Source of the DNA: Escherichia phage EscoHU1
Sequence record: NC_133119.1
Direction: 5' to 3' (one strand)
DNA: 64,000 nucleotides
Of this stretch, positions 30,952-43,232 are shown one piece after another. The notes beneath the pieces were generated by a model that saw only the letters and a program-made list of their open reading frames with translations, had not been told where the DNA came from and made no database searches. Made by a program: the position numbers and the translations under genes. Within the stretch, counting starts at the first letter, position 1; every line of letters begins with the position of its first letter.

Positions 30952-30969
30952 ATTATTTCCTTAATTTGT

Positions 30970-31045: not shown

Positions 31046-31050
31046 CGAAT

Positions 31051-31392: not shown

Positions 31393-31421
31393 ATTATAAC
31401 AAGAAATTAAGCATCAAGCAA
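31393..31421 (-). promoter_or_regulatory. early sigma70 promoter (-35 TTGCTT, -10 TATAAT)
   Basis: 17-bp spacer. Confidence 0.7.
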
Positions 31422-31773: not shown

Positions 31774-31792
31774 TTCCTTATTTTGAGTTAAT

Positions 31793-31866
31793 TGGTACTC
31801 GGTGATAGAATCGAACTATCGCAACCGCCGTGTAAAGACGGGGTTCTCCCATTAAACTAACCGAGC
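31793..31866 (-). tRNA. tRNA-Val (UAC)
   Basis: Stem CCGTC/GGCGG, loop TTTACAC, CCA encoded. Confidence 0.7.
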
Positions 31867-31999
31867 AAAAGACGTCCTATAATATAGGCTTCAACTACAA
31901 ATTCACAGAAACCTGCTAAAAACATACCTATTGTAAAATCGGCAGAGAATACATAGGAATCTTTTATTTTCTGCTTCATTAAGTAAAACCAGATAGTCA

Positions 32000-32317
32000 T
32001 TAAAATCTCTCCATTCTAAAGCCAATGAAGTAAGGTGCATTACATGGAACATGCTTAAGATCTTTAAGAGTAATTTTACGTCCTAAGCGTCGTTCCATAC
32101 AAGTGAAACATAGAACAATATCTTTGGGCTGCTCTTTTCTTATCTGATCCCATACCCAATCTTCAACCATACACATTTCATGGTATTGTTCACAGTCTCG
32201 ACAATAATGACACTGATGTTCTGGTACTTTTTGATTTTTAATACACAGTTCAGTAAAGCGTTTTCCTGCTCTGCCAGACATTTCTGATATTGTTTCTAGA
32301 ACTTTGTTAATATTCAT
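32000..32317 (-). CDS. Cys-rich zinc-finger-like protein
   Basis: 105 aa; CHYCRDC and CFTC motifs. Confidence 0.45.
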   Translation of the reverse strand: MNINKVLETISEMSGRAGKRFTELCIKNQKVPEHQCHYCRDCEQYHEMCMVEDWVWDQIRKEQPKDIVLCFTCMERRLGRKITLKDLKHVPCNAPYFIGFRMERF

Positions 32318-32334
32318 AACAAATTCCTTTAAAT

Positions 32335-32412
32335 TGGTTGACCGTCTGGGATTCGAACCCAGAACCTACGAGGTAAAAGCTCGGTACTCTTATCCAGTTG
32401 AGTTAACGGTCA
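32335..32412 (-). tRNA. tRNA-Lys (UUU)
   Basis: Loop CTTTTAC; T-arm CTGGGTTCGAATCCCAG. Confidence 0.7.
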
Positions 32413-32600
32413 ATTTAATACATGTATACTTCTTTAATAGAGTAGACTTTCAAGTAAGGATGATTAATACCAAATTCCGCCATCACTTCGTTTTCATCTT
32501 TACCGTAGTGCGCTAGTGGATACTTCTTACGATCTTTGCTAGAACGTAAATCACTTACCTTTAAACGAAATAATTTCATTTCGAAATCCTTCTATTAAAT

Positions 32601-32678
32601 TGGAAGCGGGTGCAGGAATCGAACCTACCTCTTTCTAGCTTATGAGACTAGCGATCTCTACCAGAGATCTAACCCGCA
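32601..32678 (-). tRNA. tRNA, anticodon CAU (Met/fMet/Ile2), 1:72 mismatch
   Basis: Loop CTCATAA; acceptor position 1 unpaired. Confidence 0.6.
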
Positions 32679-32684
32679 ATTATT

Positions 32685-32761
32685 TGGTCTCCAATGAAGG
32701 ACTCGAACCTTCAACCCCACCGCCCCAAACGGTGTACTCTAGCCAATTGAGCTAATCGGAG
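32685..32761 (-). tRNA. tRNA-Pro (UGG)
   Basis: C1:G72, stem CACCG/CGGTG, loop TTTGGGG. Confidence 0.8.
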
Positions 32762-32793
32762 AATATTCTTTGTTAACTCACTTTATAAAATAT

Positions 32794-32822
32794 ATTATAC
32801 AGACATTTAAGTATAATAGCAA
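32794..32822 (-). promoter_or_regulatory. early sigma70 promoter (-35 TTGCTA, -10 TATAAT) preceding tRNA-Pro
   Basis: 17-bp spacer. Confidence 0.7.
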
Positions 32823-32978
32823 ATGAGTTTTTAATAAATTTACTTATTGCGTAGGCCACCTGGAGGGTTCAAGCCCCACGGCTGACAAAGAAGTTTGCGA
32901 GACTTCTCTTAAATGCCAGAATAGACCCGCCGATCTATCGGAACCTACTCGATAAGTAAACTTTCATTTACTTACTTA

Positions 32979-33365
32979 TTATGTGCTGTGTATTTCTCGA
33001 TGACAATTCGCACACACTAAAATACATTTCTGTAATTCTTCTCTCAGCTTATCCCTGGAAATACCAGAGGATCTGAATTGACTAATATTATAGTCTTTTG
33101 AGTTTTCATCAATATGATGAAAATCCAGAGCTTGTTTGCATTTATTATACCCACAAATAGAACATTCTAATATAGGGAAGTATTCTGCAATAATAGAATC
33201 AACAGTTTCACGTCTTTTTGCATTTTCGCTAATCTTACATGTTGGCTTCCACTTTTGTTTACCCGAGGGATATATTCCATTAGTATAGAAATATTCCTTG
33301 GTTAGTGGGTGTTCCACACCACAGTTTTTACAAAACTTGTATTCCATAGCTCCTCGAACAGTCAA
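32979..33365 (-). CDS. HNH homing endonuclease
   Basis: 128 aa; DFHHIDENSKDYN...CANCHREIH. Confidence 0.7.
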   Translation of the reverse strand: MTVRGAMEYKFCKNCGVEHPLTKEYFYTNGIYPSGKQKWKPTCKISENAKRRETVDSIIAEYFPILECSICGYNKCKQALDFHHIDENSKDYNISQFRSSGISRDKLREELQKCILVCANCHREIHST

Positions 33366-33483
33366 TCTAGGCAGGACTTGAACCTGCTATCACTTGTGCG
33401 GATTTACGAGAACCATTCTTTCACTCGAATCGAACGAGCTTCTACCCTCGGCAAGCTGGTGCCCCCTCTCCACCACGCTAGAA
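33366..33483 (-). other. tRNA-like element with two T-arm-like hairpins, no canonical cloverleaf
   Basis: GCAGGTTCAAGTCCTGC and GCTCGTTCGATTCGAGT on minus strand. Confidence 0.25.
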
Positions 33484-33491
33484 TGTTTATT

Positions 33492-33567
33492 TGGTACACC
33501 CACTAGGACTTGAACCTAGAACCCTCCGCTTAAGAGGCGGTAGCTCTAACCATTGAGCTATGGATGT
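33492..33567 (-). tRNA. tRNA-Lys (CUU), tentative
   Basis: D-stem GCTC/GAGC, loop CTCTTAA, A73. Confidence 0.55.
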
Positions 33568-33678
33568 ATATTAGTCCATTGTACATCTACAAAAGAAACC
33601 CCATTTACCGCAGTGTGGACACTGTCCTCCAGAGTTTCTAGCAAAGGATTTGAACTTCATTCAACACTCCTTTAAAGT

Positions 33679-33755
33679 TGGCGCGACCGATGGGATTCGA
33701 ACCCACATTCTCTCCCGTGACAGGGGAGTACCATTACCAAGCCAGCCCCGATCGC
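33679..33755 (-). tRNA. tRNA-Asp (GUC)
   Basis: Stem CTCCC/GGGAG, loop CTGTCAC, G73. Confidence 0.8.
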
Positions 33756-33764
33756 ATAATTTGT

Positions 33765-33950
33765 TTACTCAGCTTTGAGTTTTTCGATAGCTTCCTTAAC
33801 CTCTTTTAGAGCTTCACGACGTGCATTCTGTTGCTGCATATCTTGTATTAACGTCAGTTTTTGGTTTTCAATTTCTTGATCCCAGACCTTAATATTATTA
33901 ATTAGATTATCACGATCAGCTTCTAGTCGAGCAATTGCACGAGTTGTCAT
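33765..33950 (-). CDS. small coiled-coil protein
   Basis: 61 aa ORF. Confidence 0.4.
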   Translation of the reverse strand: MTTRAIARLEADRDNLINNIKVWDQEIENQKLTLIQDMQQQNARREALKEVKEAIEKLKAE

Positions 33951-33977
33951 ATCTATTTCCTCAGTTGTTAATGAAAT

Positions 33978-34060
33978 TGGCGGGCCGTGTAGGATTCGAA
34001 CCTACGTTGTCTTTCGACATGGATTAACAGTCCACCGCCAAACCGCTTGGCTAACGACCC
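33978..34060 (-). tRNA. tRNA-Asn (GUU) with 13-nt variable arm
   Basis: Anticodon arm TGGACTGTTAATCCA as E. coli tRNA-Asn; G73; 83 nt. Confidence 0.65.
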
Positions 34061-34067
34061 TAAAATT

Positions 34068-34143
34068 TGGACGACCGCATGAGATTCGAACTCACATAAG
34101 GAGGTTTTGCAGGCCTCCGCCTAAGCCATTCAGCCAACGGTCG
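34068..34143 (-). tRNA. tRNA-Cys (GCA)
   Basis: Loop CTGCAAA, U73, 3' end GTCGTCCA. Confidence 0.7.
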
Positions 34144-34321
34144 ATTTATCTTGTTTTTCGAGATCAACGAACTCTAAATCGTTGAAGTCTCCTAGAGTAC
34201 GGGAGTAATAACCGTCTCCAGCATCATAGCCTGATTTACCACACTTACACATCTTAAACTCACGTAGACGTGTAAAGATATGTTCAGAGCCACAACACTT
34301 AAATTTAACTAACTTTTTCAT
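34130..34321 (-). CDS. small zinc-ribbon-like protein
   Basis: 63 aa; CxGS...CKC; 3' end overlaps tRNA-Cys by about 14 nt. Confidence 0.35.
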   Translation of the reverse strand: MKKLVKFKCCGSEHIFTRLREFKMCKCGKSGYDAGDGYYSRTLGDFNDLEFVDLEKQDKSTVG

Positions 34322-34560
34322 CCAACACGCTCCGGTAAATCTTCGAGTTTATATTGAGTAGCCACATTAGCAGCATCTAGTAACAAACCCATATGTTTAA
34401 GAATTCTAGTGATAGCCTCGCCTTCTGCTTCTTCTACAAAGCAACGTAGTTGCATGAAGTCAATACCACCATCCATACCAGAGAAAATGTTAAGTAAGCG
34501 AAGCATTACCAGCTTACGTTCTTTTAATTCTTGTTCTGTCATGTTGCTTCTCCAGTTCAA
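34318..34560 (-). CDS. hypothetical protein
   Basis: 80 aa ORF. Confidence 0.4.
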   Translation of the reverse strand: MNWRSNMTEQELKERKLVMLRLLNIFSGMDGGIDFMQLRCFVEEAEGEAITRILKHMGLLLDAANVATQYKLEDLPERVG

Positions 34561-34571
34561 TTTATGTAATA

Positions 34572-34600
34572 ATTATACAGAACTTTAAGCGGTTAAGCAA
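34572..34600 (-). promoter_or_regulatory. early sigma70 promoter (-35 TTGCTT, -10 TATAAT)
   Basis: 17-bp spacer. Confidence 0.7.
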
Positions 34601-34880
34601 CTACATTTTTCAGAAATATGATGCCTTTCTTTTTCTTCTTATATTTCCATGTTAATGGATTCTGTCGATTATGAACGCTTGAGATCTTTGTCTCGTCAAA
34701 GTTCTTCAGTACCATGTAATCACAGGCCAACTGTTCCAGTGGGATGTGATCTCCGTCAAAAGCATAAACATAAGGCTGTTGACTGGCACGATAATGATAT
34801 ACTTTGTTAATTCTGCGTTTCAGTGACTTATCCGCACAGTAAATAAAGAAGTTTTCAGGATGCATCAGCATCTCCTTCAA
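34593..34880 (-). CDS. hypothetical protein
   Basis: 95 aa ORF. Confidence 0.4.
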   Translation of the reverse strand: MKEMLMHPENFFIYCADKSLKRRINKVYHYRASQQPYVYAFDGDHIPLEQLACDYMVLKNFDETKISSVHNRQNPLTWKYKKKKKGIIFLKNVVA

Positions 34881-34882
34881 AT

Positions 34883-34957
34883 TGGTGCACCCCGTTGGTA
34901 ACGATCCAACCTCTCAAGCTCTTCAGGCAAGCGCTAATCCATCTCAGCTAAAGGTGC
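34883..34957 (-). tRNA. tRNA-Phe-like (GAA), two U-U mismatches in anticodon stem, non-canonical T-loop
   Basis: Acceptor GCACCTT/GGGGTGC + ACCA; loop CTGAAGA; T-loop ATCGTTA. Confidence 0.5.
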
Positions 34958-34963
34958 AAATAT

Positions 34964-35043
34964 TGGCAAACCTACTAGGACTCGAACCTAGACCGTACGG
35001 TTTTGGAGACCGACATGCTGTCCAGTAACACTCTAGGGATGCA
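34964..35043 (-). tRNA. tRNA-Trp-like (CCA), 5' acceptor strand does not pair
   Basis: TCGGTCTCCAAAACCGT arm, T-arm, G73-CCA like E. coli tRNA-Trp; 5' half aberrant. Confidence 0.4.
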
Positions 35044-35048
35044 GAAAT

Positions 35049-35125
35049 TGGCGTCCTGTGCGGGGATCGAACCCGCAAATCCTACCTTGAAAGGGTAGTG
35101 ACTTTACCAGTTTGTCTAACAGGAC
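35049..35125 (-). tRNA. tRNA-Glu (UUC)
   Basis: GTCCTGT...ACAGGACGCCA ends, loop CTTTCAA. Confidence 0.8.
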
Positions 35126-35132
35126 TTAAATT

Positions 35133-35223
35133 TGGTGTTGGATGATGGAGTCGAACCACCCGAGACCCTTCCGAGTCGGCAGATTTACAGTCTGCTTCGC
35201 TACCTCTACGATACTAATCCAAC
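35133..35223 (-). tRNA. tRNA-Tyr (GUA)
   Basis: 91 nt; anticodon arm GCAGACTGTAAATCTGC identical to E. coli tRNA-Tyr. Confidence 0.85.
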
Positions 35224-35348
35224 ATATTTGAATGAAAAGTAAGTCGGTTAAACTCAAGGTGGAATATTTCAGGAAATCCTGACTTTACCCCTAAAAGCAA
35301 CTCGCTTAGTTACTTCTCATTCAGATATGTTTTCCAAATTAGATAACT

Positions 35349-35377
35349 ATTATACCAAGTTTTGAAGGACTGAGCAA
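35349..35377 (-). promoter_or_regulatory. early sigma70 promoter (-35 TTGCTC, -10 TATAAT) preceding tRNA-Tyr
   Basis: 17-bp spacer. Confidence 0.6.
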
Positions 35378-35413
35378 GTCAAATTTTAAAGAACTTGCTC
35401 AGTGCTATATCAG

Positions 35414-35689
35414 TTACTCGAAGCTAGGAGTGACACTCAGTTTGAATGGAAGCTCGAACACTTCTTCATAATCATCATTGAGCGTAATTACACGACCTTC
35501 TAGCTTAGTCATGGTGATTTCGATATCAGCCCTTGCATCAGGAGCCATACCAGCTTCCACACATTTAGCTTTGACTTCCGGCAGAAGTTCTACATCGTAG
35601 AAATAAAGCCATTCAATCTCACCCTCCCAGCCACCCCAGGATTTACAAACAGCACTTTCAACACCAGTTGCAGTAACACGTTTTGACAT
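35414..35689 (-). CDS. hypothetical acidic protein
   Basis: 91 aa ORF. Confidence 0.45.
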   Translation of the reverse strand: MSKRVTATGVESAVCKSWGGWEGEIEWLYFYDVELLPEVKAKCVEAGMAPDARADIEITMTKLEGRVITLNDDYEEVFELPFKLSVTPSFE

Positions 35690-35719
35690 TCGTTAACCCC
35701 TTCATCAATTTATATAACT

Positions 35720-35749
35720 ATTATATCAGAAATCTTAAGTAAAAAGCAA
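35720..35749 (-). promoter_or_regulatory. early sigma70 promoter (-35 TTGCTT, 18 bp, -10 TATAAT)
   Basis: Hexamers read on minus strand. Confidence 0.65.
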
Positions 35750-35779
35750 GTACATTTTTAAAATTTCTGCTTGGAGGAG

Positions 35780-36052
35780 TTAAACTCCTGATTCTTCAGC
35801 CAGATCAAGCCCAACCAACGTGATTGCCATAATAGCTGCGCCATGTTCTTTCTCTCCTAGCTCTTTGGCTTGAGTGAGAATATTGAGGAATTGCTTTTGA
35901 AAATCTGCAACTTCTTCTGTCATGCCTGCTTCAGCAATAATTCCTTTCAGCATAAAGCGTTGTGCTGTAATTTCAGGATTAGCCATTTGTTTTCTCCAGT
36001 TATTTAGAATGTAAGCCAAACTTAGGATCATAGCGATCGTAAGTCGTACCAT
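35780..36052 (-). CDS. hypothetical protein
   Basis: 90 aa ORF. Confidence 0.45.
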   Translation of the reverse strand: MVRLTIAMILSLAYILNNWRKQMANPEITAQRFMLKGIIAEAGMTEEVADFQKQFLNILTQAKELGEKEHGAAIMAITLVGLDLAEESGV

Positions 36053-36137
36053 TAGTTGAAGCCTTGATGCTATGAAAACGACAGTACATAAATTTACGTA
36101 GTGCTTTCTTAATAGCTTTCATTTTATTTCCTTAATT

Positions 36138-36214
36138 TGGTAGGGGTGGTGGGATTCGAACCCACAAAACCCGAATTTTAAGTCCGGTACCTATGCCAAT
36201 TCGATTACACCCCC
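36138..36214 (-). tRNA. tRNA with anticodon UAA (Leu by anticodon) in class-I frame
   Basis: 77 nt; stem CCGGA/TTCGG, loop CTTAAAA, 5-nt variable loop. Confidence 0.6.
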
Positions 36215-36223
36215 ATGTAATCT

Positions 36224-36571
36224 TTAGAGTTCGTAACCCTGAATATATCGAGCAAAACCAGTAATCTCGAACTGAATTGCCCATGCTACTTCCATATGCT
36301 CAATCTTACTAAAATGAGCGTCAGACTGTTCTAGGAAATAACGAGAGATTATAGGGAACTCAATGTCAAAATCTTCCTTATCCATACCATAGAAGAAGTT
36401 TCCAGAAATATTACGAACTTCACGAAAGAAATCCTCAATCTGAAAATCCATCAGAGGATAAGTATATTCCTCTTTGCTATCATCCGTTTGGAAGAAGCGG
36501 AAATGCACAAGGCAAGAGCCAATCAGATTTACTGCTGGAGTAGTGTAAATATCCATGTTAACCTCGATCAA
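36224..36571 (-). CDS. hypothetical acidic protein
   Basis: 115 aa ORF. Confidence 0.45.
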   Translation of the reverse strand: MIEVNMDIYTTPAVNLIGSCLVHFRFFQTDDSKEEYTYPLMDFQIEDFFREVRNISGNFFYGMDKEDFDIEFPIISRYFLEQSDAHFSKIEHMEVAWAIQFEITGFARYIQGYEL

Positions 36572-36743
36572 TATCTAGAGAAATTCCAAATTCTGGATTA
36601 ATACCAGAACCATTACATGCTGCACATTCCCACTCTTCAAAACGCATATCGCCAGGTTCAGCATCATTAATAGTACCTGTTCCATGGCAGTGAGCACACA
36701 TGCACTCTTCTAGTTCTTGTTTAAGCTCTTGAAACTTAGACAT
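36558..36743 (-). CDS. small Cys-rich protein
   Basis: 61 aa; CAHCHGTG...CAACNGSG. Confidence 0.4.
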   Translation of the reverse strand: MSKFQELKQELEECMCAHCHGTGTINDAEPGDMRFEEWECAACNGSGINPEFGISLDIDRG

Positions 36744-36760
36744 ATAGTCTCCTAGTTAAT

Positions 36761-36838
36761 TGGTGGCTCCCGGAGGATTCGAACCTACCTACCTTTCGCT
36801 TATGAGGCGACGGCTCATACCAAATGAGCTTGAGAACC
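36761..36838 (-). tRNA. tRNA, anticodon CAU (third CAU species)
   Basis: Acceptor GGTTCTC/GGGAGCC, loop CTCATAA, CCA encoded. Confidence 0.65.
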
Positions 36839-36843
36839 AAATT

Positions 36844-36915
36844 TGGAGGAAGATGCCAGACTCGAACTGGCACACCGTGTCTCCACAGCTACTGGCTGTT
36901 TAGCAAACAGCTCCC
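36844..36915 (-). other. tRNA-like element (T-arm, acceptor, CCA) with truncated anticodon region
   Basis: GCCAGTTCGAGTCTGGC + ATCTTCC-T-CCA; only about 16 nt between D-arm and T-arm. Confidence 0.3.
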
Positions 36916-36951
36916 TTACCTTTAGGGTTAATCTTCCAAATTTATGAATAT

Positions 36952-36980
36952 ATTATATTAGAAATTTAGCTTCATGGCAA
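36952..36980 (-). promoter_or_regulatory. early sigma70 promoter (-35 TTGCCA, -10 TATAAT)
   Basis: 17-bp spacer; overlaps stop of upstream gene. Confidence 0.6.
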
Positions 36981-37431
36981 GAAAATTTTTCAAGTTTTCT
37001 GTATTCATTTCATCTAAATCCATGAGGGAAGTAAACCCATTTAGTTTTTTAGCAAACTTCTCACCAGCAGAATCATTATCGCCTACGGCTACTACTTTAA
37101 AAGGTTGTAATTTTAGCTGCTTTAGCAATGCTTTGCTAGGGGAAGATCCTAGCATTGCTAGTGCGGGATATCCCGCGTTGTGTAGTGCCACAGCTTTAAA
37201 TACAGATTCTGCAACTAATACTAGGTCTTCATTACCTGTAAGAGTTTCTAAACCCCATAGACATTGAGTAGAAGAATGCGTAAAATATTTAGCTTCAGAA
37301 GGACATTTTCCATGACCTTTAGCTGCACTAGGGTTATATGTTTGATATCCACGTAACATGCCAGAGAAATCATACAGTGGAACTGTTAACCATCCATGTG
37401 GAGAGCCAACAGTGATACTTACCACTATCAA
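36958..37431 (-). CDS. hypothetical protein (possible Toprim-like fold)
   Basis: 157 aa; LVLVAESV...VVAVGDNDSAGEKF. Confidence 0.4.
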   Translation of the reverse strand: MIVVSITVGSPHGWLTVPLYDFSGMLRGYQTYNPSAAKGHGKCPSEAKYFTHSSTQCLWGLETLTGNEDLVLVAESVFKAVALHNAGYPALAMLGSSPSKALLKQLKLQPFKVVAVGDNDSAGEKFAKKLNGFTSLMDLDEMNTENLKNFLAMKLNF

Positions 37432-37505
37432 AGCCCCTAGATAAAAGATGTTGTTTTAACTCGTCAACAGTCATATATGACTCCTATCTATAATTTATAG
37501 AATAT

Positions 37506-37534
37506 ATTATATAGAAAATTTCGGCATTAAGCAA
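37506..37534 (-). promoter_or_regulatory. early sigma70 promoter (-35 TTGCTT, -10 TATAAT)
   Basis: 17-bp spacer. Confidence 0.7.
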
Positions 37535-37542
37535 GTGAAATT

Positions 37543-37839
37543 TTACTGAACACTGCACTGATACACTTGTTTGATACGTGTCACTGACTTCTTAGTTGGA
37601 TTGATAGAAGAACCTTGCCACCAACGTGATTCTGAGCTGAGAACAGCACCAGGAACAGCTTGTTCTTTTGGCAGAACAATATCAAAACATTGCTCACCCA
37701 TATTATCTTTAATGTGTGACCAAATATCCAAAGTAAATCGTTCTAACTTATTACAAACCTGAACTTGACAAAGTTCCTGTTGCGGAGCAGCAAATACAGA
37801 AGTAGATACTAGAGTCAATGCAAGTACAATGCGTTTCAT
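37543..37839 (-). CDS. secreted protein (signal peptide)
   Basis: 98 aa; MKRIVLALTLVSTSVFAAP. Confidence 0.45.
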   Translation of the reverse strand: MKRIVLALTLVSTSVFAAPQQELCQVQVCNKLERFTLDIWSHIKDNMGEQCFDIVLPKEQAVPGAVLSSESRWWQGSSINPTKKSVTRIKQVYQCSVQ

Positions 37840-37869
37840 GTTTGATTCCTCTCTCGAATTTATAAATAT

Positions 37870-37898
37870 ATTATACAGAAATTTTCTATATTAAGCAA
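37870..37898 (-). promoter_or_regulatory. early sigma70 promoter (-35 TTGCTT, -10 TATAAT)
   Basis: 17-bp spacer. Confidence 0.7.
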
Positions 37899-37916
37899 GT
37901 GAAAATTTCTGTATAA

Positions 37917-37937
37917 TAGCCCTCGCTTAGAGGGCTA
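37917..37937 (-). terminator. hairpin terminator (TAGCCCTC-GCTTA-GAGGGCTA)
   Basis: Directly after PnuC-like stop. Confidence 0.45.
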
Positions 37938-37945
37938 TAACTACT

Positions 37946-38638
37946 TTATTTGTTAACGCGTACAAAGTATCCTTTATAGGCTCCAAGAATGGAGTTACCT
38001 AAGAATACTAGCCACATTGCTAGGATTGCATAAGATGCACCTGTAGATTGAGCAGTTACAAGCCAAATGTATACAGTACCAATGTTAATAGCAATCCAGA
38101 TCAGCCATTGTTCAGCATATTGCTTGACCATAAGCCACATAGCAATCACACTACCAACCGCAGTAAATGCATCGAGCATCGGGAATGGATCAGCTGTAGT
38201 AGCAAGGAAGCTACCGTAACCTAAAGTAGCTACTGCTAGAACCCCTAGAGTCAGCAAAGCTTGGGCTTTAGTCAGAATCTTAGTTGGAACATCTGGCAGA
38301 TTACTTGGCTTATTTTTATGCCATAAGTACATTCCGTAGAACTGCATAGGAACGTAGTACAATAGGTTTAATGCTGCGTTACCATAAAGATCTGCATTTA
38401 AAGCTGTAATACCATAGGTAAGAACACCAACTAAGCCCCAAATATAGTTGGAAACGCGTCCTTTTGCAACCAAAATAACACAAACTACGTTGGTTATCGC
38501 AGTAGCCCAATCTAGAGGTGTACCATTATAGTTAGCTAAACTAATGAAGGCAACCGCTATGAACAGCCACAGATATTCCAGAGGTTTCCAGTTTTTAAAG
38601 TCATTTACGAGATAGTTAGTCATATTAAAACTCTCCAA
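37946..38638 (-). CDS. pnuC: nicotinamide riboside/NMN transporter PnuC-like
   Basis: 230 aa multi-TM; family resemblance (WLFIAVAFISL...YGMYLW). Confidence 0.65.
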   Translation of the reverse strand: MESFNMTNYLVNDFKNWKPLEYLWLFIAVAFISLANYNGTPLDWATAITNVVCVILVAKGRVSNYIWGLVGVLTYGITALNADLYGNAALNLLYYVPMQFYGMYLWHKNKPSNLPDVPTKILTKAQALLTLGVLAVATLGYGSFLATTADPFPMLDAFTAVGSVIAMWLMVKQYAEQWLIWIAINIGTVYIWLVTAQSTGASYAILAMWLVFLGNSILGAYKGYFVRVNK

Positions 38639-39680
38639 CGTTAAAGTGATGAATCAGCCAGTCTACTGCGTTTACTGCTTCGTCCATACGAACTTTGTAG
38701 TCCGGGGAGTCGATGTAAACAGTACGCCCTTCAGGGAACTGATTTGGAAATTCTTTCTTCATCTGCTCGAACAGTTCAGAAGTAATTGAACGATCGGAGT
38801 TAATACGTAAACCATCATCTACCCACTTGACAGTAGGCGCTAGAACAATTACTAAATCGTAATGTTCTTCTTTTGCAATTGCTGTAACCACAGGGTTCTT
38901 ACGATGTTCATAAAGTCTGTGGTAGAACTCAGTAATAAAAGCATTTGTATCCACAAACATGATCTTATTTGCAGTACGTTCTGCTTCAAATTCTAGCTCT
39001 TTGTGTCTGAACGCAATTTTACTATAATCTTCGCTGGTAAGCAGATTTTCGTTACCAACTAGATCAACTTCACAATACGTTCGGCCATATTCTTCTACCC
39101 ACGAAGTGTTGTATAGCTTCGCAAGGTATTTTGTTAAAGTAGTCTTTCCCGAGCTTTCAGTCCCAATGATTACAACCTTACGCACGTAATCTTTACGAAC
39201 TACGCTAGGAAGAAACTCCCAATACTTCATAAGATCATTACGAATCATTGTAGCTGAGATTGGAACACGAGTCCGATCAGAATCTACAATATAATGACCA
39301 AACTTCGGCAGATATTTCTTATATTCTGCATCATAGTCTAGTTCGCTAGAGAAAATGGTGATCTCAGGCAAATGTCCATAATTTTCATTAAGGATTCTAG
39401 CATATTCCGGCCAACCATTCGGATATTCAGGAATATCATCTTCAATAATGTACTCTACCGAAACGTGCTCAATATCCGCGTAAGTTTGTTCTAACCAACG
39501 AAGTCGATTCTTTAACTGTAATACTTCCTGATCACGTGTGTTCTGCTTATCCAGCCAACGATTATCATGACTAACTACAACAATAACTCGTTCACACATA
39601 GTTGCTGCTGTGTTTATTAGGTTAATATGACCACGCGTTAATGGTGCGAACTTACCAATTACTAGACCAGTCTTAATCAT
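38625..39680 (-). CDS. nadR: NadR-like bifunctional NMN adenylyltransferase / ribosylnicotinamide kinase
   Basis: GKFAPLTRGH nucleotidyltransferase motif + P-loop GTESSGKTT; start set at MIKTGLVIGKF after GAGG RBS. Confidence 0.7.
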   Translation of the reverse strand: MIKTGLVIGKFAPLTRGHINLINTAATMCERVIVVVSHDNRWLDKQNTRDQEVLQLKNRLRWLEQTYADIEHVSVEYIIEDDIPEYPNGWPEYARILNENYGHLPEITIFSSELDYDAEYKKYLPKFGHYIVDSDRTRVPISATMIRNDLMKYWEFLPSVVRKDYVRKVVIIGTESSGKTTLTKYLAKLYNTSWVEEYGRTYCEVDLVGNENLLTSEDYSKIAFRHKELEFEAERTANKIMFVDTNAFITEFYHRLYEHRKNPVVTAIAKEEHYDLVIVLAPTVKWVDDGLRINSDRSITSELFEQMKKEFPNQFPEGRTVYIDSPDYKVRMDEAVNAVDWLIHHFNVGEF

Positions 39681-39710
39681 ATTTGATTCCTCTCTCAAAT
39701 TTATAAATAT

Positions 39711-39739
39711 ATTATACAGAGAATTTAGCATTCAAGCAA
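39711..39739 (-). promoter_or_regulatory. early sigma70 promoter (-35 TTGCTT, -10 TATAAT)
   Basis: 17-bp spacer. Confidence 0.7.
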
Positions 39740-39855
39740 TCGAATTTTTTAACTTTTTAGAGGAAAATCGCAGGGCACTTAAGGGTAGCAGATGAGTGGT
39801 GAGGACCAGAAATTGTTACCCCAATAAAAATCCGGGGGCAATTTTTAAAGACCCC

Positions 39856-39884
39856 TTGACATTTTCGCTGGGATAGGATAAAGT
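39856..39884 (+). promoter_or_regulatory. candidate plus-strand promoter (-35 TTGACA, -10 TAAAGT)
   Basis: 17-bp spacer; -10 is weak. Confidence 0.3.
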
Positions 39885-39945
39885 ATATGTTATGGATGAG
39901 TGATCAAAGAGACACACATTTTCTATATACTAGGAGGTGTCAAAA

Positions 39946-40974
39946 ATGACAGAAGAAGTAGCTAAGAAACCTGAATCTCTAAGTGAAGTAGCAGCAGAAC
40001 TGCATCGTCACGAAGAATCAGACAAGAAAAAGTGGGAAAAGCTTAAAGCTCAAGAGCGAGCTGACGAGCATCATTATCATCATCACCATCATGAACACTA
40101 TGAGGAAGATGATGAAGACGACGAAGAAGAAGATGAACATGAACATCATGGTTATCACAAATATGGAGAAAGAAAAATGCAAGAACCAGTAAACGTATTC
40201 ACTAACGGCTTCCCTGGCCTGATGGGTGGTTACCCAGCTAACGCAGGTGCTTTCGGTGGAGAAGGTATGGGTCTATTCGGAGCTATCCTAATCGGTGCTC
40301 TATTAACAGGCGGATTCGGTGGATTTGGTGGATTTGGCGGACGTGGAGCAGGTGCTGTGGCTGAATTAACTGGTGTAGAAACTGTTCTGAGTAACCAAAA
40401 TACGTCAAGTATCCTATCTGCAATCAATACTGCTCGTACTGAAGCTAACCAGGGAACTGGTGCTGTTCTAAGCGCAGTAAATGGTGTAGGTGCTGCAGGT
40501 GCTGCTAGCACTCAGCAGATTCTGACTTCTCTGTACGGTACTGGTGCTAACCTGTCCAATCAGATCTGTCAGGAAACTCGTAGCGTTATTCAGGGTCAGT
40601 TTGACCTGTCTCGCCAGATCGATCAGTCCTTCGCGGCTAACCAGATCGCTCGTGCTCAAGACAAGTTTGATGCTGCTCAGATCGCTTTCCAGCAGACTAT
40701 TCAGACTAACAACCAGTTCGCTGCTGTAGCTGCACAGGCGTGCGCTAACCAGAACGCTCTGGAACGTCAGATCGCTGAATGTTGCTGTGAACTTCAGACT
40801 GCAATCGCTGGTGTAACTACTGCGCGTATTCAGGATGAATTAGATGAATGCCGTCTGCGTGAAGCAATCGCTGCAGGTAATGGTGCTAATGGTCAGGTAA
40901 TCAACCAAATCGCTGTAAGTCTTGGTGCTATCACTCAGACTCTAGCTGGTCTGCAGGCTAAACTGCCGGCTTAA
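39946..40974 (+). CDS. low-complexity protein: His/acidic-rich N-terminus, Gly-rich segment, Q/A-rich C-terminus
   Basis: AGGAGG RBS then ATG (track's GTG start at 39937 trimmed); HHYHHHHHEHYEEDDEDDEEEDEHEHH; GGFGGFGGFGG. Confidence 0.55.
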   Translation: MTEEVAKKPESLSEVAAELHRHEESDKKKWEKLKAQERADEHHYHHHHHEHYEEDDEDDEEEDEHEHHGYHKYGERKMQEPVNVFTNGFPGLMGGYPANAGAFGGEGMGLFGAILIGALLTGGFGGFGGFGGRGAGAVAELTGVETVLSNQNTSSILSAINTARTEANQGTGAVLSAVNGVGAAGAASTQQILTSLYGTGANLSNQICQETRSVIQGQFDLSRQIDQSFAANQIARAQDKFDAAQIAFQQTIQTNNQFAAVAAQACANQNALERQIAECCCELQTAIAGVTTARIQDELDECRLREAIAAGNGANGQVINQIAVSLGAITQTLAGLQAKLPA

Positions 40975-40996
40975 TAATTAAGGGGAGGAGCCCATT

Positions 40997-41431
40997 ATGA
41001 GTAAATATGGTTTTGTGAACAACGGATTTAATCAACAAATGGGCTCCCAGCAGCCCGTTCCGGGTCTAGATAACCCTTACTTACAACAGTTGCAACAGCG
41101 TTTGGCAGAAGCACAAAATATGCAACAGCAGTTCCAACAACCTGGAACTGCTAACCCTATGCAGATGATGCAACAGCAAATGGTAGGGCAGCCGCAAATG
41201 CCTCAACAAATGCAGCCTCAGATGCAGCAAATGCAACAAATGCCTCAACAGCAGCAAGTTCAACAACTCCAACATCCGCAGGTATCTGCGGAAGGACAGG
41301 CTGTTCTAGCCCTTTTCGAAGACTTCGCTAAAACAGAGGATGGGAAGCAACTTGTATCGCTTATGGGTAAGTTTAACAGCTTCTGTCAGAGTCAGGTTGC
41401 AAAAGCTCAGAATGGGGGTAATAACTCCTAA
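40997..41431 (+). CDS. Gln-rich protein
   Basis: 144 aa; GGAGG RBS; long Q/M/P repeats. Confidence 0.5.
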   Translation: MSKYGFVNNGFNQQMGSQQPVPGLDNPYLQQLQQRLAEAQNMQQQFQQPGTANPMQMMQQQMVGQPQMPQQMQPQMQQMQQMPQQQQVQQLQHPQVSAEGQAVLALFEDFAKTEDGKQLVSLMGKFNSFCQSQVAKAQNGGNNS

Positions 41432-41440
41432 GGAGAAATT

Positions 41441-41635
41441 ATGTGTTGTAGAAAACCTGTGTCATGCTGTCCTATGCCTGTAGCACGTTGTTGCTCTCCA
41501 GCAATGTTTACACAAATACCGGTGTTCAATCCCTTTGCCTTTAAGCCTACTCTTATCCTGCCCCCTAGAGTAGATTTTCAGTCAAGATTGGTCTCCCGTA
41601 TGGGTGGTTGCTGTACACCGAGAGTATGGTTCTAA
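41441..41635 (+). CDS. small Cys-rich protein
   Basis: 64 aa; AGGAG RBS; 9 Cys. Confidence 0.4.
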   Translation: MCCRKPVSCCPMPVARCCSPAMFTQIPVFNPFAFKPTLILPPRVDFQSRLVSRMGGCCTPRVWF

Positions 41636-41648
41636 ACCAAAAAACAAA

Positions 41649-41673
41649 AGCCCCTACGTCTTTTGACTAGGGG
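41649..41673. terminator. bidirectional rho-independent terminator
   Basis: GCCCCTA-loop-TAGGGGC with T-runs on both sides. Confidence 0.65.
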
Positions 41674-41682
41674 CTTTCTTGT

Positions 41683-42213
41683 TTATAAATTTAAGTAATC
41701 TAGAGAAGGTATCACACCATCAAATTCTTCTAGGATAGCAAACTCTCCAGCAAATTCTTTCCTCATTTCGTTAGCTTTTGCTATCGCACTTCCAAGATCT
41801 TCGTAACCAAAAGATCCTCCTGATCTTTTAATACCTTCCTTATCTCTTATTAATACTCTCCATTTTTGCCTGTTCTTCTCCCAGCATACATTAGCATACC
41901 CAGACTTAGACTTTAATTTCTTATTTCTTTGATTTTGAGAATCTGTAGATTCTCTTAGATTGTCCCATGCATTATTATTTCTAATCCTATCTTTATGATC
42001 GACCATGCTAGGTAGGTATCCTTTTACATAAAGGAATGCTAGAACATGGGCTAAGTACATTTTTCCAGAGATCTGAATTCTGATATATCCATCAGATGTT
42101 AGGCTTCCCGCAATGCTGCCGGCCTTCTTGTTTCCTCTACTAACCTTATATGTAAACAATCCAGTTTCTTGATCATAGTCAAAAAGCTCTTTCAATTTTT
42201 CTTGAGTTAACAT
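41683..42213 (-). CDS. HNH endonuclease with AP2-like DNA-binding domain
   Basis: 176 aa; YLAHVLAF...VDHKDRIRNNNAWDNLR; C-terminal GYANVCWEK...RSGGSFGYEDLGSAIAKANEMR. Confidence 0.7.
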   Translation of the reverse strand: MLTQEKLKELFDYDQETGLFTYKVSRGNKKAGSIAGSLTSDGYIRIQISGKMYLAHVLAFLYVKGYLPSMVDHKDRIRNNNAWDNLRESTDSQNQRNKKLKSKSGYANVCWEKNRQKWRVLIRDKEGIKRSGGSFGYEDLGSAIAKANEMRKEFAGEFAILEEFDGVIPSLDYLNL

Positions 42214-42287: not shown

Positions 42288-43232
42288 TTACTTATTACGC
42301 ATATCCATGATCATCTGGCCATCGTAACCAGTTCCCACTACTGTTTGCGGTACACCACCTTGGTATTTTTCAGCACGAAGCATTTCAACTTCCAGCTGCT
42401 TCCAACGAATCATTTCAGGAGTAATGGTACGTTGCAGAGCGGCGTTAGCTTCAGCTTCTTTCTTAGCTGCGTACAGTTTAGCATCTGCGTCACGTTCGTT
42501 AGCTACTGCCATGTTTTCACGAGCAGAGCGATCTGCTTCAGCTTGCTTAACTTTCTGCTGTGCTTCTTGTTCAACACGAGCCAGTTCAGCTTTTGCTGCG
42601 TTAACTTGTTCTTCACGAACTTTTGTGTTCTGTACCTGTTCCATAATTACCGGTGGCAGAGTAATATCCTGAAGGAATACTTGCTTAACGGTGTAACCAT
42701 AAGGGCGCGCATACTCTTCTACTTCTTGCTGAATAGCAGTTTGCAGTTGAGCCTGAATCTTAGCGTCGAACAGATCTTGTGCTTTTGGTACAGACTTACC
42801 AAACTCACGAATCGTAGATAGCATCTTCTCTTCAACGTATTTGTTAAGAGCTTGATCCTGAGTACCTGCGTTAACACGGTTCATAGGAGCTTTAGCTCCA
42901 TCAAACTGTAACATAACGGTAATGTCAACAGTAGACTTAAACTTATCCTGGCTAGGAACCTGAAGTTTATCCAGTTTCATAGAAATATCTTTCGTACTAA
43001 AAGTATCAAAAGAGGCTAATGGGTTAACAATATGGAAGCCTGGCAATACAGGATTCGGGCTAACTTTACCCAGGAAAGTTTGAGTCTTAACAGTACCATC
43101 CTGAACAACTGTATAGGAATTGAGAGCCAGAATAAGAGCACCAAGACCAACAGCAGCACCAACACCCCAACGTTTAATAGTACGAATTACTTTTTGCTCA
43201 GAAGTCAGTTCTTTAGTGTTTTTAGTAAACAT
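42288..43232 (-). CDS. SPFH/band-7 (stomatin/prohibitin/HflK-like) membrane protein
   Basis: N-terminal TM then SPFH-like core and long coiled coil; start moved to MFTKNTKEL to clear the tRNA. Confidence 0.65.
   Translation of the reverse strand: MFTKNTKELTSEQKVIRTIKRWGVGAAVGLGALILALNSYTVVQDGTVKTQTFLGKVSPNPVLPGFHIVNPLASFDTFSTKDISMKLDKLQVPSQDKFKSTVDITVMLQFDGAKAPMNRVNAGTQDQALNKYVEEKMLSTIREFGKSVPKAQDLFDAKIQAQLQTAIQQEVEEYARPYGYTVKQVFLQDITLPPVIMEQVQNTKVREEQVNAAKAELARVEQEAQQKVKQAEADRSARENMAVANERDADAKLYAAKKEAEANAALQRTITPEMIRWKQLEVEMLRAEKYQGGVPQTVVGTGYDGQMIMDMRNK

What the first reader, a model, noticed from the sequence alone, without database searches (positions are those of the whole stretch)
39856..41673. 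Self-contained plus-strand island of three low-complexity proteins (His/acidic-rich, Gln-rich, Cys-rich)
Inside a long minus-strand region sits an opposite-strand unit with its own candidate promoter and a strong bidirectional terminator. Its first product has a His/acidic tract (HHYHHHHHEHYEEDDEDDEEEDEHEHH), a Gly-rich GGFGGFGGFGG segment and a Q/A-rich tail with a CCC motif. The second is dominated by Q/M/P repeats. The third is a 64-aa peptide with 9 Cys. This composition suggests metal binding or condensate/amyloid-like behaviour and I cannot tie any of the three to a known phage function.
Basis: seen in the sequence. Interest (0 to 1): 0.6.

Follow-up and report, generated by a model that had tools for sequence, protein, structure and literature searches.

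The report
Mobile three-gene accessory operon in T5-like phage
The plus-strand island is real: it is the already annotated but uncharacterised T5.077–T5.079 operon, a dispensable three-gene cassette (a membrane protein with a CCC motif, a small helical partner and a tiny protein with paired cysteines) that also occurs in N4-like and lambda-like phages, and its eye-catching His/acidic and Gln-rich tracts are only variable linkers.

Summary
The window is Escherichia phage EscoHU1, a T5-like phage. In detail: three plus-strand ORFs (39946-40974, 40997-41431, 41441-41635) lie between a sigma-70-type promoter and a strong bidirectional terminator. One correction: ORF3 has 8 Cys in four CC pairs, not 9.

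The unit equals T5 genes T5.077-079, with promoter P12 and a terminator annotated in GenBank. All three genes have unknown function. No Pfam, PDB or PADLOC relative was found, and the only PHROG matches are families of unknown function.

The His/acidic tract and the Q/M/P repeats are the least conserved parts. They vary by indels, evolve near neutrally, and are short or absent in relatives. The conserved parts are:
- ORF1: a Gly-rich hydrophobic segment and a helical domain with a CCC motif.
- ORF2: helices at both ends.
- ORF3: the N-terminal Cys and an internal CC pair.

The same triad sits as an opposite-strand island in an N4-like phage and a lambdoid phage, so it is a mobile, moron-like cassette.

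It is dispensable. About 175 T5-like genomes match only the island's left flank; the one examined, S114, is a deletion derivative. T5Mos lacks P12 and half of T5.077. A CRISPRi-ART screen scores all three genes "Not Fit".

Function is inferred only. My best guess is a membrane-anchored module for inter-phage competition that uses thiol chemistry, held with low confidence.

The parts
39791..39855 (+). Left end of the island-specific DNA, upstream of the promoter
   Evidence: Homology between the island-less Salmonella phage S114 and the window stops at 39790 and resumes at 42219. Among island-bearing T5-like phages, sequence conservation already begins at about 39681.
39856..39884 (+). Sigma-70-type promoter (T5 P12 equivalent): TTGACA-17 nt-TAAAGT, followed by ATATG
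   Evidence: The equivalent T5 site is annotated 'promoter P12'. Its form differs from the phage's stereotyped early promoters, TTGCT(T/A)-17-TATAAT-ATATT.
39885..39945 (+). 5' untranslated leader with the Shine-Dalgarno AGGAGG at 39932-39937
   Evidence: Identical or nearly so across seven T5-like phages. This is the most conserved block of the island, with conservation 0.997.
39946..40974 (+). ORF1 (T5.077 homologue, PHROG 8119), 342 aa. It has an N-terminal helix, a variable His/acidic linker, a Gly-rich hydrophobic segment and a long helical Cys-bearing domain.
   Evidence: CAI is 0.49, against a window mean of 0.29 (sd 0.10), rank 5 of 117. dN/dS is 0.11-0.23.
40069..40158 (+). ORF1 His/acidic tract (aa 42-71), a variable linker
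   Evidence: It is not conserved in alignment A1. dN/dS is 0.99 against T5. The tract varies by indels, and the poly-His run is present in 4 of 22 islands.
40258..40338 (+). ORF1 Gly-rich hydrophobic segment (aa 105-131, GEGMGLFGAILIGALLTGGFGGFGGFG), a predicted membrane anchor with a glycine-zipper pattern
   Evidence: Kyte-Doolittle 19-residue maximum is 1.72. This is the most constrained part of ORF1, with dN/dS 0.05-0.09. A comparable hydrophobic segment is found across the wider family. AlphaFold2 did not model it.
40780..40788 (+). ORF1 CCC motif (Cys279-281) within the conserved QIAECCCELQTAIAG helix
   Evidence: Conserved in at least 90% of sequences in A1 and A2. CCC is present in 62 of 78 members of the wider family.
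40997..41431 (+). ORF2 (T5.078 homologue, PHROG 7894), 144 aa. A conserved N-terminal helix and a C-terminal helical hairpin are joined by a variable Q/M/P linker (about 41135-41281).
   Evidence: AlphaFold2 gives helix 27-46, a disordered middle, and a hairpin at 98-139 with pLDDT 84-90.
41441..41635 (+). ORF3 (T5.079 homologue), 64 aa. A basic micro-protein with four vicinal CC pairs, preceded by the SD TAAGGAG.
   Evidence: It is exactly 64 aa and intact in 20 of 22 distinct T5-like islands. Positional homologues starting MCC or MCGC occur in every lineage that has the cassette, with M1, C2 and an internal CC invariant.
41642..41684 (.). Bidirectional intrinsic terminator (AAAAGCCCCTA...TAGGGGCTTT, with an A-run before it and a T-run after it)
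   Evidence: dG -22.8 kcal/mol, z = -5.7. The T5 equivalent is annotated as an efficient bidirectional terminator. It is retained in degenerate form in the deletion derivative S114.

Best explanation
What is shown. This is the T5.077-T5.078-T5.079 operon. It is a conserved but dispensable, self-contained accessory ('moron'-type) cassette that moves between unrelated enterobacterial phages.

It encodes three proteins:
1. An apparently abundant protein with a variable N-terminal region, a Gly-rich hydrophobic segment that probably anchors it in the inner membrane, and a roughly 200-residue all-helical domain carrying a near-invariant CCC motif.
2. A small partner made of an N-terminal helix and a C-terminal helical hairpin, joined by a flexible Q/P-rich linker.
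3. A basic micro-protein of 49-69 aa with no acidic residues. Its conserved features are an N-terminal Cys cluster and an internal vicinal CC pair.

What is inferred. The three products probably form one membrane-associated complex in which the conserved cysteines do the chemistry (a disulfide or thiolate network, or soft-metal binding).

The cassette is expressed from its own host-type promoter, independently of the carrier phage's programme. In virulent phages that probably means early in infection. In the lambdoid carrier it probably means expression from the prophage.

The most likely benefit is protection of the occupied cell against competitors, for example exclusion of superinfecting phages at the envelope. 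The cassette does not appear to contribute to replication, virion assembly or lysis.

The anatomy, mobility and dispensability are shown with confidence of about 0.85. The exclusion/competition role is a guess at about 0.25-0.3.
For: Identity. ORF1 is 100% identical to EscoHU1_076. Synteny with T5.077-079, P12 and the terminator is clear.

Mobility. The same triad lies on the strand opposite to its neighbours in four settings:
- divergent T5-like contigs;
- a lambdoid phage, between the Q antiterminator and the holin/lysozyme/Rz genes;
- an N4-like Gamaleyavirus carrying vRNAP.

The ORF2 homologues there are confirmed by PHROG 7894, with E = 3e-25 and 8e-14. Nucleotide similarity between carriers is confined to the cassette. 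L006 and L009 share 72.7% identity over 626 nt of ORF1, and their flanks share nothing.

Moron-like traits. The cassette has its own promoter and terminator. Its GC content is 46.6% against 40.1% for the window. Its promoter differs from the phage's stereotyped early promoters.

Dispensability.
- About 216 phage records carry the whole island, while about 175 T5-like records match only its left flank.
- S114 is a deletion derivative that keeps the last ~32 nt of ORF3 and the terminator.
- The viable strain T5Mos has a deletion of 30661-38625 (PMC11464382). The coordinate system was verified. The deletion removes P12 and codons 1-187 of T5.077.
- A CRISPRi-ART knock-down screen scores T5.077, T5.078 and T5.079 as 'Not Fit' (PMC11879866 supplement).

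Selection and expression. All three ORFs are under purifying selection, strongest on the hydrophobic segment (dN/dS 0.05-0.09) and the CCC region (0.12). ORF1 has a CAI of 0.49, about 2 sd above the window mean. The SD CTAAGGAG of ORF3 is kept even where it lies inside the ORF2 coding sequence.

Possible prophage expression. In the lambdoid carrier the cassette is antisense to the late operon, and its bidirectional terminator lies just downstream of a promoter-like site next to Q. This layout resembles lambda bor, which is expressed in lysogens (my own knowledge).

Neighbourhood. In T5 the surrounding region is rich in accessory and anti-defence genes: tRNA-Lys against PARIS and T5.076 against retrons.
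Against: - There is no experimental or homology-based evidence for any function.
- Membrane insertion and topology are predicted only from hydropathy. The segment is short and Gly-rich, has almost no flanking charges, and AlphaFold2 left it unstructured (pLDDT 25-37).
- Known superinfection-exclusion factors are usually single proteins, and none is homologous to these.
- No consensus sigma-70 promoter was found upstream of ORF1 in the lambdoid or N4-like copies. Autonomous expression is therefore supported only for the T5-like copies.
- The cassette was not found in 5,426 complete E. coli genomes or in plasmids, so a lysogenic-conversion role is untested.
- Its position in the T5 accessory region fits a counter-defence role equally well.
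- ORF3 is rarely called by gene finders (one cluster in 5.8 billion proteins), and its translation has not been shown.
Confidence: 0.35

Rival explanations
1. Counter-defence module. The cassette neutralises a host immune system, for example a membrane-associated or redox/metal-dependent effector, and is kept in the phage's anti-defence-rich accessory region.
For: In T5 the cassette sits among accessory genes with shown anti-defence roles. T5.076, next door, subverts retrons, and the tRNA cluster neutralises PARIS. In EscoHU1 its neighbour is a NadR/PnuC NAD-salvage pair. The cassette is dispensable on laboratory K-12, as expected for a conditionally useful gene. It has spread horizontally across phage families.
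Against: In the lambdoid carrier it is antisense to the late operon, not part of an early lytic operon. No similarity to known anti-defence proteins was found. A three-protein membrane-anchored design is unusual for anti-defence factors.
Confidence: 0.2
2. Metal handling. The conserved Cys motifs (CCC, CC pairs) and the N-terminal His/Asp residues bind soft metals such as Cu(I), Zn or Cd. The cassette then buffers or sequesters metal in the infected or lysogenic cell.
For: Vicinal cysteines are the most conserved feature of ORF3, and CCC is a family-wide hallmark of ORF1 (62 of 78 members). H22 and D26 in the N-terminal helix are conserved or invariant. Remote relatives also have His-rich N-termini. 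There is a weak sub-threshold hit to the His-rich loop of ZIP transporters (E = 0.043).
Against: The His/acidic tract is not conserved and evolves near neutrally. ORF3 is 12.5% Cys and contains 7 aromatic residues, unlike metallothioneins. No CxxC or CxC metal-site pattern is present, and there are no Pfam metal-binding domains. It is unclear why three unrelated phage types would all need metal buffering.
Confidence: 0.12
3. Virion, assembly or lysis function. ORF1 would be an ejection or membrane-piercing protein, or an i-spanin/holin-like lysis factor, with ORF3 as a Pro-rich o-spanin-like partner.
For: ORF1 has a hydrophobic segment followed by a long helical domain with Cys, like i-spanins. 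ORF3 is small and Pro-rich (16% Pro). A remote relative in a TAG-recoded gut phage carries 7 in-frame TAG codons and lies among probable late genes.
Against: The cassette is absent from about 175 T5-like genomes, and deleting it or knocking it down causes no defect. It is antisense to the late operon in the lambdoid carrier, which already has its own holin, lysozyme and Rz (PF03245). ORF3 has no signal peptide or lipobox.
Confidence: 0.04
4. Low-complexity-driven condensate or amyloid formation by the Q-rich ORF2 and the Gly/Phe-rich ORF1.
For: ORF2 is 28% Gln. ORF1 has GGFGGFGGFGG repeats. Both regions are predicted disordered.
Against: The Q/M/P tract varies in length and is nearly absent in divergent homologues. 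Selection acts on the flanking helices, not on the repeats.
Confidence: 0.04

Closest known systems
T5 genes T5.077, T5.078 and T5.079 with promoter P12 and the bidirectional terminator (NC_005859 37954-39720); PHROG 8119 and PHROG 7894
   Same: These are direct orthologues. ORF1 is about 77% identical at the protein level. Gene order, intergenic spacing, promoter and terminator are the same.
   Different: EscoHU1 has a longer poly-His/acidic insert. Its left neighbour is NadR/PnuC instead of T5.076. An HNH endonuclease gene is inserted just after the terminator. No function is known for any member.
Phage 'morons' such as lambda bor (an independently transcribed accessory gene antisense to the late operon; my own knowledge of Hendrix/Juhala morons and of bor)
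   Same: It is an autonomous promoter-plus-terminator unit lying between conserved genes. It is present or absent among close relatives, has a different base composition, is dispensable, and is antisense to flanking transcription.
   Different: It has three genes rather than one. It is carried mainly by virulent phages. It has no homology to bor, lom or any characterised moron product.
Membrane-located superinfection-exclusion proteins (T4 Imm/Sp, P22 SieA, HK97 gp15, T5 Llp; my own knowledge)
   Same: This is a functional analogy only. Both are small accessory envelope proteins expressed from host-type promoters and dispensable in the laboratory. Llp is likewise transcribed divergently from its neighbour in T5-like phages (PMC8624392).
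   Different: No sequence or fold similarity was found. This is a three-component design with conserved vicinal cysteines. No exclusion phenotype has been tested.
PHROG 16490 family in gut Firmicutes and TAG-recoded phages
   Same: These are remote homologues of ORF1, found by a profile search (151 representatives at E <= 1e-3). They share the same layout: a short N-terminus, a hydrophobic/Gly-rich segment, and a helical domain with a C-x-CCC motif.
   Different: They are followed by different partners: a BclA_C-like beta protein (PHROG 20016) and an RG/Y-rich protein (PHROG 28802), not ORF2 and ORF3. They are probably late genes in those phages.
Rz/Rz1 two-component spanins
   Same: There is a superficial resemblance: a membrane-anchored helical Cys-containing protein plus a small Pro-rich Cys-containing protein encoded nearby.
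   Different: ORF3 has no lipobox or signal sequence. The cassette is not linked to holin or endolysin genes in T5-like phages. It coexists with a genuine Rz in the lambdoid carrier, and it is dispensable.

Membership tests
T5.077-079 operon family (PHROG 8119 / PHROG 7894 / T5.079) | Full-length sequence homology of ORF1 and ORF2 to the family profiles | tested here: met
   PHROG 8119 E = 3.2e-176 and PHROG 7894 E = 1.9e-66. ORF1 is 77% identical to T5.077 by tblastn.
T5.077-079 operon family (PHROG 8119 / PHROG 7894 / T5.079) | Conserved gene order ORF1-ORF2-ORF3, with promoter P12 and the bidirectional terminator | tested here: met
Phage moron (autonomous accessory transcription unit) | Own promoter upstream and own terminator downstream | tested here: met
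   The promoter matches 10 of 12 consensus positions, is conserved, and is annotated P12 in T5. The terminator has dG -22.8 kcal/mol and z = -5.7. Promoter activity in vivo was not tested. No consensus promoter was found in the lambdoid or N4-like copies.
Phage moron (autonomous accessory transcription unit) | Present or absent between otherwise collinear related genomes, and dispensable | tested here: met
   About 216 records carry the island and about 175 do not. S114 is a deletion derivative. T5Mos and the CRISPRi-ART screen show dispensability.
Phage moron (autonomous accessory transcription unit) | Base composition different from the surrounding genome; found in unrelated phages | tested here: met
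   GC content is 46.6% against 40.1%. The cassette occurs in lambdoid and N4-like carriers.
Two-component spanin (Rz/Rz1) | The o-spanin has a signal peptide with a lipobox; the genes are linked to holin and endolysin; they are needed for lysis | tested here: not met
   ORF3 starts MCCRKP, with no hydrophobic signal sequence or lipobox. The lambdoid carrier has its own PF03245 Rz. The cassette is dispensable.
Metallothionein / His-rich metal-binding protein | A conserved metal-ligand tract (a His run or CxC/CxxC clusters), very high Cys content and few aromatic residues | tested here: not met
   The His tract is not conserved and has dN/dS of about 1. ORF3 is 12.5% Cys with 7 aromatic residues. 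There is no Pfam hit above threshold. Actual metal binding cannot be tested here.
Prion-like / Q-rich condensate-forming protein | The Q/N-rich domain is the conserved, functionally required element | tested here: not met
   The Q/M/P tract is a linker of variable length that is nearly absent in divergent homologues. The conserved parts are the flanking helices.
cAMP-dependent protein kinase catalytic subunit (the label on ORF2 homologues in several GenBank records) | A protein kinase catalytic domain | tested here: not met
   ORF2 has no kinase domain in Pfam and is only 144 aa. The label appears. It is probably an annotation artefact of the Gln-rich tract.
Known anti-phage defence or superinfection-exclusion proteins | Homology to a described defence or exclusion protein | tested here: not met
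   PADLOC gives no significant hit. The only PHROG matches are to families of unknown function. An exclusion phenotype cannot be tested with these tools.

The most novel reading that the evidence does not exclude
The cassette is a previously unrecognised kind of portable, three-component envelope system. Its parts are a CCC-motif membrane protein, a two-ended helical adaptor and a vicinal-dithiol micro-protein. Unrelated phages (T5-like, N4-like, lambdoid) would exchange it to exclude competitors or disarm a host defence through thiol or disulfide chemistry at the inner membrane. ORF1 would also be the first studied representative of a large uncharacterised 'CCC' protein family spread through gut phages.
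Probability: 0.25. Interest if true: 0.7.

Novelty: new member of a known kind. Interest (0 to 1): 0.42.

Why it matters
T5 is a classic model phage, yet this operon has sat in its genome as 'hypothetical' for twenty years.

Three results turn it from a compositional curiosity into a defined experimental target:
- It is a portable unit shared with N4-like and lambdoid phages.
- It is repeatedly lost without cost in the laboratory.
- Its conserved core is a set of vicinal cysteines, not the flashy low-complexity tracts.

Accessory cassettes of this kind have often turned out to be exclusion, defence or counter-defence systems (my own knowledge of the field).

The work also flags three practical points:
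- A micro-protein (T5.079) that most annotations miss.
- A wrong 'cAMP-dependent protein kinase' label that has propagated through GenBank.
- A large CCC-motif protein family in gut phages with no known function.

Tried and rejected
- Family libraries. Pfam, PHROGs and PADLOC scans of all three proteins and of distant relatives gave only sub-threshold noise or 'unknown function' families.
- Solved structures. A profile search of PDB sequences returned nothing.
- AlphaFold2 on ORF1. The model had low confidence (pLDDT 49) and was unusable for fold comparison. A Foldseek search against BFVD gave no hit better than E = 1.8.
- AlphaFold2 on ORF2. The helical hairpin was modelled confidently, but Foldseek found no PDB match.
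- Rfam. An E-value scan of 36-46 kb found only tRNAs outside the island, plus a chance 'Histone3' hit. There is no riboswitch or sRNA family in the leader.
- Complete E. coli genomes and plasmids. Searches with the lambdoid copy found no match.
- GTDB genomes, IMG/VR and metagenome scans. These returned only T5-like copies and remote gut-phage relatives, with no new carrier types.
- Protein database search for ORF3. It found a single cluster, because gene callers usually skip this ORF.
- Literature. The text search for 'T5.077/078/079' found nothing in main texts; the genes appear only in the CRISPRi-ART supplement. 'ORF072/073' led to an unrelated Pseudomonas phage. The gpT5.026 paper covers P15A but not P12.
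- Spanin and virion readings were considered and rejected for the reasons given under rival explanations.
- Hydrophobic periodicity. ORF1 residues 140-342 show a period of about 3.7, which is hendecad-like. The signal is too weak to build on.
Full report
**What the window is.** ORF1 of the finding is 100% identical to protein EscoHU1_076 of Escherichia phage EscoHU1. The island DNA matches 395 T5-like phage records of the family Demerecviridae. The region lies inside the phage's tRNA-rich early region: 19 tRNA genes between 30 and 50 kb, all on the - strand.

**Check of the observation.**
- The three + strand ORFs are present, inside a block of - strand genes about 45 kb long.
- ORF1 starts at the ATG at 39946, behind the SD AGGAGG, and not at the GTG at 39937.
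- The His/acidic tract, the GGFGGFGGFGG segment, the CCC motif and the Q/M/P richness are as described.
- ORF3 has 8 cysteines, not 9, arranged as four vicinal CC pairs.
- The promoter-like site TTGACA-17-TAAAGT at 39856-39884 is not significant as a bare consensus match. It is, however, nearly invariant in T5-like phages and corresponds to the annotated promoter P12 of T5.
- The terminator hairpin at 41642-41684 folds at -22.8 kcal/mol with z = -5.7. It has an A-run before it and a T-run after it, and T5 annotates the equivalent site as an efficient bidirectional terminator.

**It is already annotated, but nothing is known about it.** The unit equals T5.077, T5.078 and T5.079 (NC_005859 38064-39671), all labelled 'hypothetical protein'.
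- ORF1 belongs to PHROG 8119 and ORF2 to PHROG 7894, both of unknown function. ORF3 matches nothing.
- Pfam, PADLOC, a PDB profile search and Foldseek add nothing.
- Most genome records do not call ORF3 at all.
- Several records label ORF2 'cAMP-dependent protein kinase catalytic subunit'. No kinase domain exists, so this is an annotation artefact.

**What is conserved and what is not.** I aligned ORF1 with homologues down to 30% identity (A1; A2).
- Conserved parts of ORF1:
  - an N-terminal helix (V15, L19, H22, D26);
  - the motif KMQEPVNVFTNG;
  - the Gly-rich hydrophobic segment;
  - a C-terminal region around QIAECCCELQTAIAG and GQVINQIAVSLGAITQTLAALQ.
- The His/acidic tract falls in a gap-rich, unconserved stretch. 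It is the most variable part of the island and has dN/dS 0.99 against T5. For comparison, dN/dS is 0.05-0.09 for the hydrophobic segment and 0.12 for the CCC region.
- The long poly-His run occurs in only 4 of 22 distinct T5-like islands. T5 itself has EEEHREHDDKDEEDDDDEHCHKY at that position.
- In ORF2 the N-terminal helix (PYLQQLQQRL.EAQ) and the C-terminal 45 residues (EGQAVLALFEEFAKTDDGKQLVS.MGKFNSFCQS) are invariant or nearly so. The Q/M/P repeats form a linker of 0 to about 50 residues.
- AlphaFold2 models ORF2 as a helix (27-46), a disordered middle and a confident helical hairpin (98-139, pLDDT 84-90).
- AlphaFold2 on ORF1 has low confidence (pLDDT 49). It predicts an N-terminal helix and an all-helical region from 142 to 339.

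**ORF3 is very probably a real gene.**
- It is preceded by TAAGGAG at ideal spacing. That SD is kept even in the N4-like copy, where it lies inside the ORF2 coding sequence and ORF3 overlaps ORF2.
- It is intact and exactly 64 aa in 20 of 22 distinct T5-like islands, with dN/dS of 0.18-0.46.
- Every lineage with the cassette has a small ORF at the same position, starting MCC or MCGC and containing an internal CC pair. M1, C2 and that CC pair are invariant across 8 sequences from three phage backgrounds.
- None of these peptides contains an acidic residue.

One point is unexplained: synonymous divergence in ORF3 (dS 0.07-0.2) is well below that of ORF1 and ORF2 (0.4-0.6).

**The cassette is mobile.** The same triad lies on the strand opposite to its neighbours in each of these settings:
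- Divergent T5-like contigs (L006, L051, L053).
- A lambdoid phage. There it sits between the Q antiterminator and the holin/lysozyme/Rz genes, next to NinB/NinG and terminase genes (L007 and L008).
- An N4-like Gamaleyavirus that carries the virion RNA polymerase (L009 and L010).

ORF2 homology in the last two is confirmed by PHROG 7894. Nucleotide similarity between carriers is limited to the cassette, for example 72.7% over 626 nt of ORF1 between L006 and L009, with unrelated flanks.

Three further features fit foreign, autonomous DNA:
- The island's GC content is 46.6%, against 40.1% for the window.
- Its promoter differs from the phage's stereotyped early promoters, TTGCT(T/A)-17-TATAAT-ATATT, of which at least ten lie on the - strand. 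That motif is the early-promoter signature described in PMC7472727.
- In T5-like and N4-like carriers it sits in or beside the tRNA cluster. In the lambdoid carrier it occupies the classic accessory-gene site after Q and is antisense to the late operon, with a bidirectional terminator right after ORF3.

In the lambdoid and N4-like copies a small zinc-ribbon ORF (MDRRYCP.CGTL.HKC..CG.WFTK) lies divergently just upstream. T5-like copies lack it.

**The cassette is dispensable.**
- Of 395 T5-like records that match the query, about 216 carry the whole island. About 175 match only the first 91 nt of the left flank.
- Salmonella phage S114 goes directly from the NadR promoter region to the terminator. 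The alignment shows that it retains the last ~32 nt of ORF3 and a degenerate terminator, so it is a deletion derivative.
- The viable laboratory strain T5Mos carries a deletion of 30661-38625 (PMC11464382). I confirmed that those coordinates are in the NC_005859 system. The deletion removes P12 and codons 1-187 of T5.077.
- The genome-wide CRISPRi-ART knock-down screen of T5 scores T5.077, T5.078 and T5.079 as 'Not Fit' and annotates all three as unknown (PMC11879866 supplement).

This excludes an essential role in replication, morphogenesis or lysis on laboratory hosts.

**The wider family.** An exhaustive profile search found 151 cluster representatives at E <= 1e-3. Most are proteins of 250-340 aa from gut metagenomes. 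They share the same plan: a short N-terminus, a hydrophobic/Gly-rich segment, and a helical domain with a C-x-CCC motif. Many fall in PHROG 16490, also of unknown function.
- One sits in a TAG-recoded, 30% GC phage contig and has 7 in-frame TAG codons.
- Others are in contigs binned with Clostridia, Oscillospiraceae and Akkermansia.
- These remote relatives are followed by different partners: a BclA_C-like protein (PHROG 20016) and an RG/Y-rich protein (PHROG 28802). The ORF2/ORF3 partnership is therefore specific to the enterobacterial cassette.
- No Pfam family covers the group.

**How it most likely works.**

Shown:
- It is an autonomous, portable, non-essential operon.
- ORF1 is codon-adapted: CAI 0.49, rank 5 of 117 genes in the window.
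- Selection is strongest on the hydrophobic segment and the CCC region.

Inferred:
- ORF1 is anchored in the inner membrane through a glycine-zipper-like segment and oligomerises through its long helices.
- ORF2 bridges two partners with its two structured ends.
- ORF3 and the CCC motif supply a cysteine-based site, either a disulfide/thiolate network or a soft-metal site.
- The cassette has spread across phages with different lifestyles. It is antisense to the late operon in a temperate carrier, and it is dispensable in the laboratory.
- I therefore favour a role in competition at the cell envelope, analogous to superinfection exclusion.
- Counter-defence is the main rival.
- Metal buffering, virion or lysis roles, and condensate formation are less likely, for the reasons given under rival explanations.

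None of these functions has been tested. Topology, complex formation, ORF3 translation and the timing of P12 all remain open.

**Verdict.** The feature is real and its anatomy was accurately described. It is already annotated in T5, and the emphasis on the low-complexity tracts was misplaced. It is best filed as a moron-type accessory operon of unknown function, with moderate interest because of its mobility and its unusual conserved cysteine architecture.

Noticed in passing
window 41683-42213 (- strand): An HNH homing-endonuclease gene (PHROG 99, E = 2e-63) is inserted between the island's terminator and a second terminator that precedes the T5.080 homologue. It is absent at this position in T5, STG2, S114 and other relatives.
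   Followed up: partly
window 37946-39731 (- strand): A PnuC-like nicotinamide riboside transporter and a NadR-like NMN adenylyltransferase/ribosylnicotinamide kinase lie immediately left of the island. In T5 that position holds T5.076, a Toprim protein reported to subvert retron defence. This suggests an accessory or anti-defence neighbourhood.
   Followed up: partly
window, - strand, e.g. 56570, 50347, 47076, 45751, 39739, 37898, 37534, 36980, 32822: At least ten stereotyped promoters of the form TTGCT(T/A)-17 nt-TATAAT-ATATT were found. They match the ATATT discriminator signature of T5 early promoters described in PMC7472727. The island's own promoter does not follow this pattern.
   Followed up: partly
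window 41441-41635: Synonymous divergence in ORF3 (dS 0.07-0.2) is two- to five-fold lower than in ORF1 and ORF2 (0.4-0.6) for the same phage pairs. The two C-terminal variants (TPRVWF and NKSIWF) are distributed mosaically. This hints at recombination or an extra nucleotide-level constraint.
   Followed up: no
L007 3716-3919 (-) and L009 3756-3911 (-): A small zinc-ribbon ORF (MDRRYCP.CGTL.HKC..CG.WFTK...) lies divergently just upstream of ORF1 in both the lambdoid and the N4-like carrier. The two copies share 85% nucleotide identity over 53 nt. T5-like copies lack it. It may be a regulator that travels with the cassette.
   Followed up: partly
L004 1771-2757; L015-L019: Remote ORF1 relatives (PHROG 16490, with a C-x-CCC motif) occur in a TAG-recoded, 30% GC phage contig and in contigs binned with Clostridia, Oscillospiraceae and Akkermansia. 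They are followed by a BclA_C-like protein (PHROG 20016) and an RG/Y-rich protein (PHROG 28802). This is a large uncharacterised family of gut-phage proteins.
   Followed up: partly
GenBank records of T5-like phages (e.g. OM386657, MW567727, AY587007 'kapc'): ORF2 homologues are labelled 'cAMP-dependent protein kinase catalytic subunit' although they are about 140 aa and have no kinase domain. The error has propagated and is probably seeded by the Gln-rich tract.
   Followed up: yes
L013 (Salmonella phage GSW6) and L026 (Salmonella phage SE11): In GSW6 the ORF3 stop codon is lost and the ORF reads through. In SE11 ORF1 is interrupted. These are either natural decay of the cassette or sequencing errors.
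   Followed up: no
window 42881-42925 (+): There is an Rfam 'Histone3' stem-loop hit below the gathering score (23.8 bits against a threshold of 34) inside the T5.080-homologue gene. It is almost certainly a chance match.
   Followed up: no
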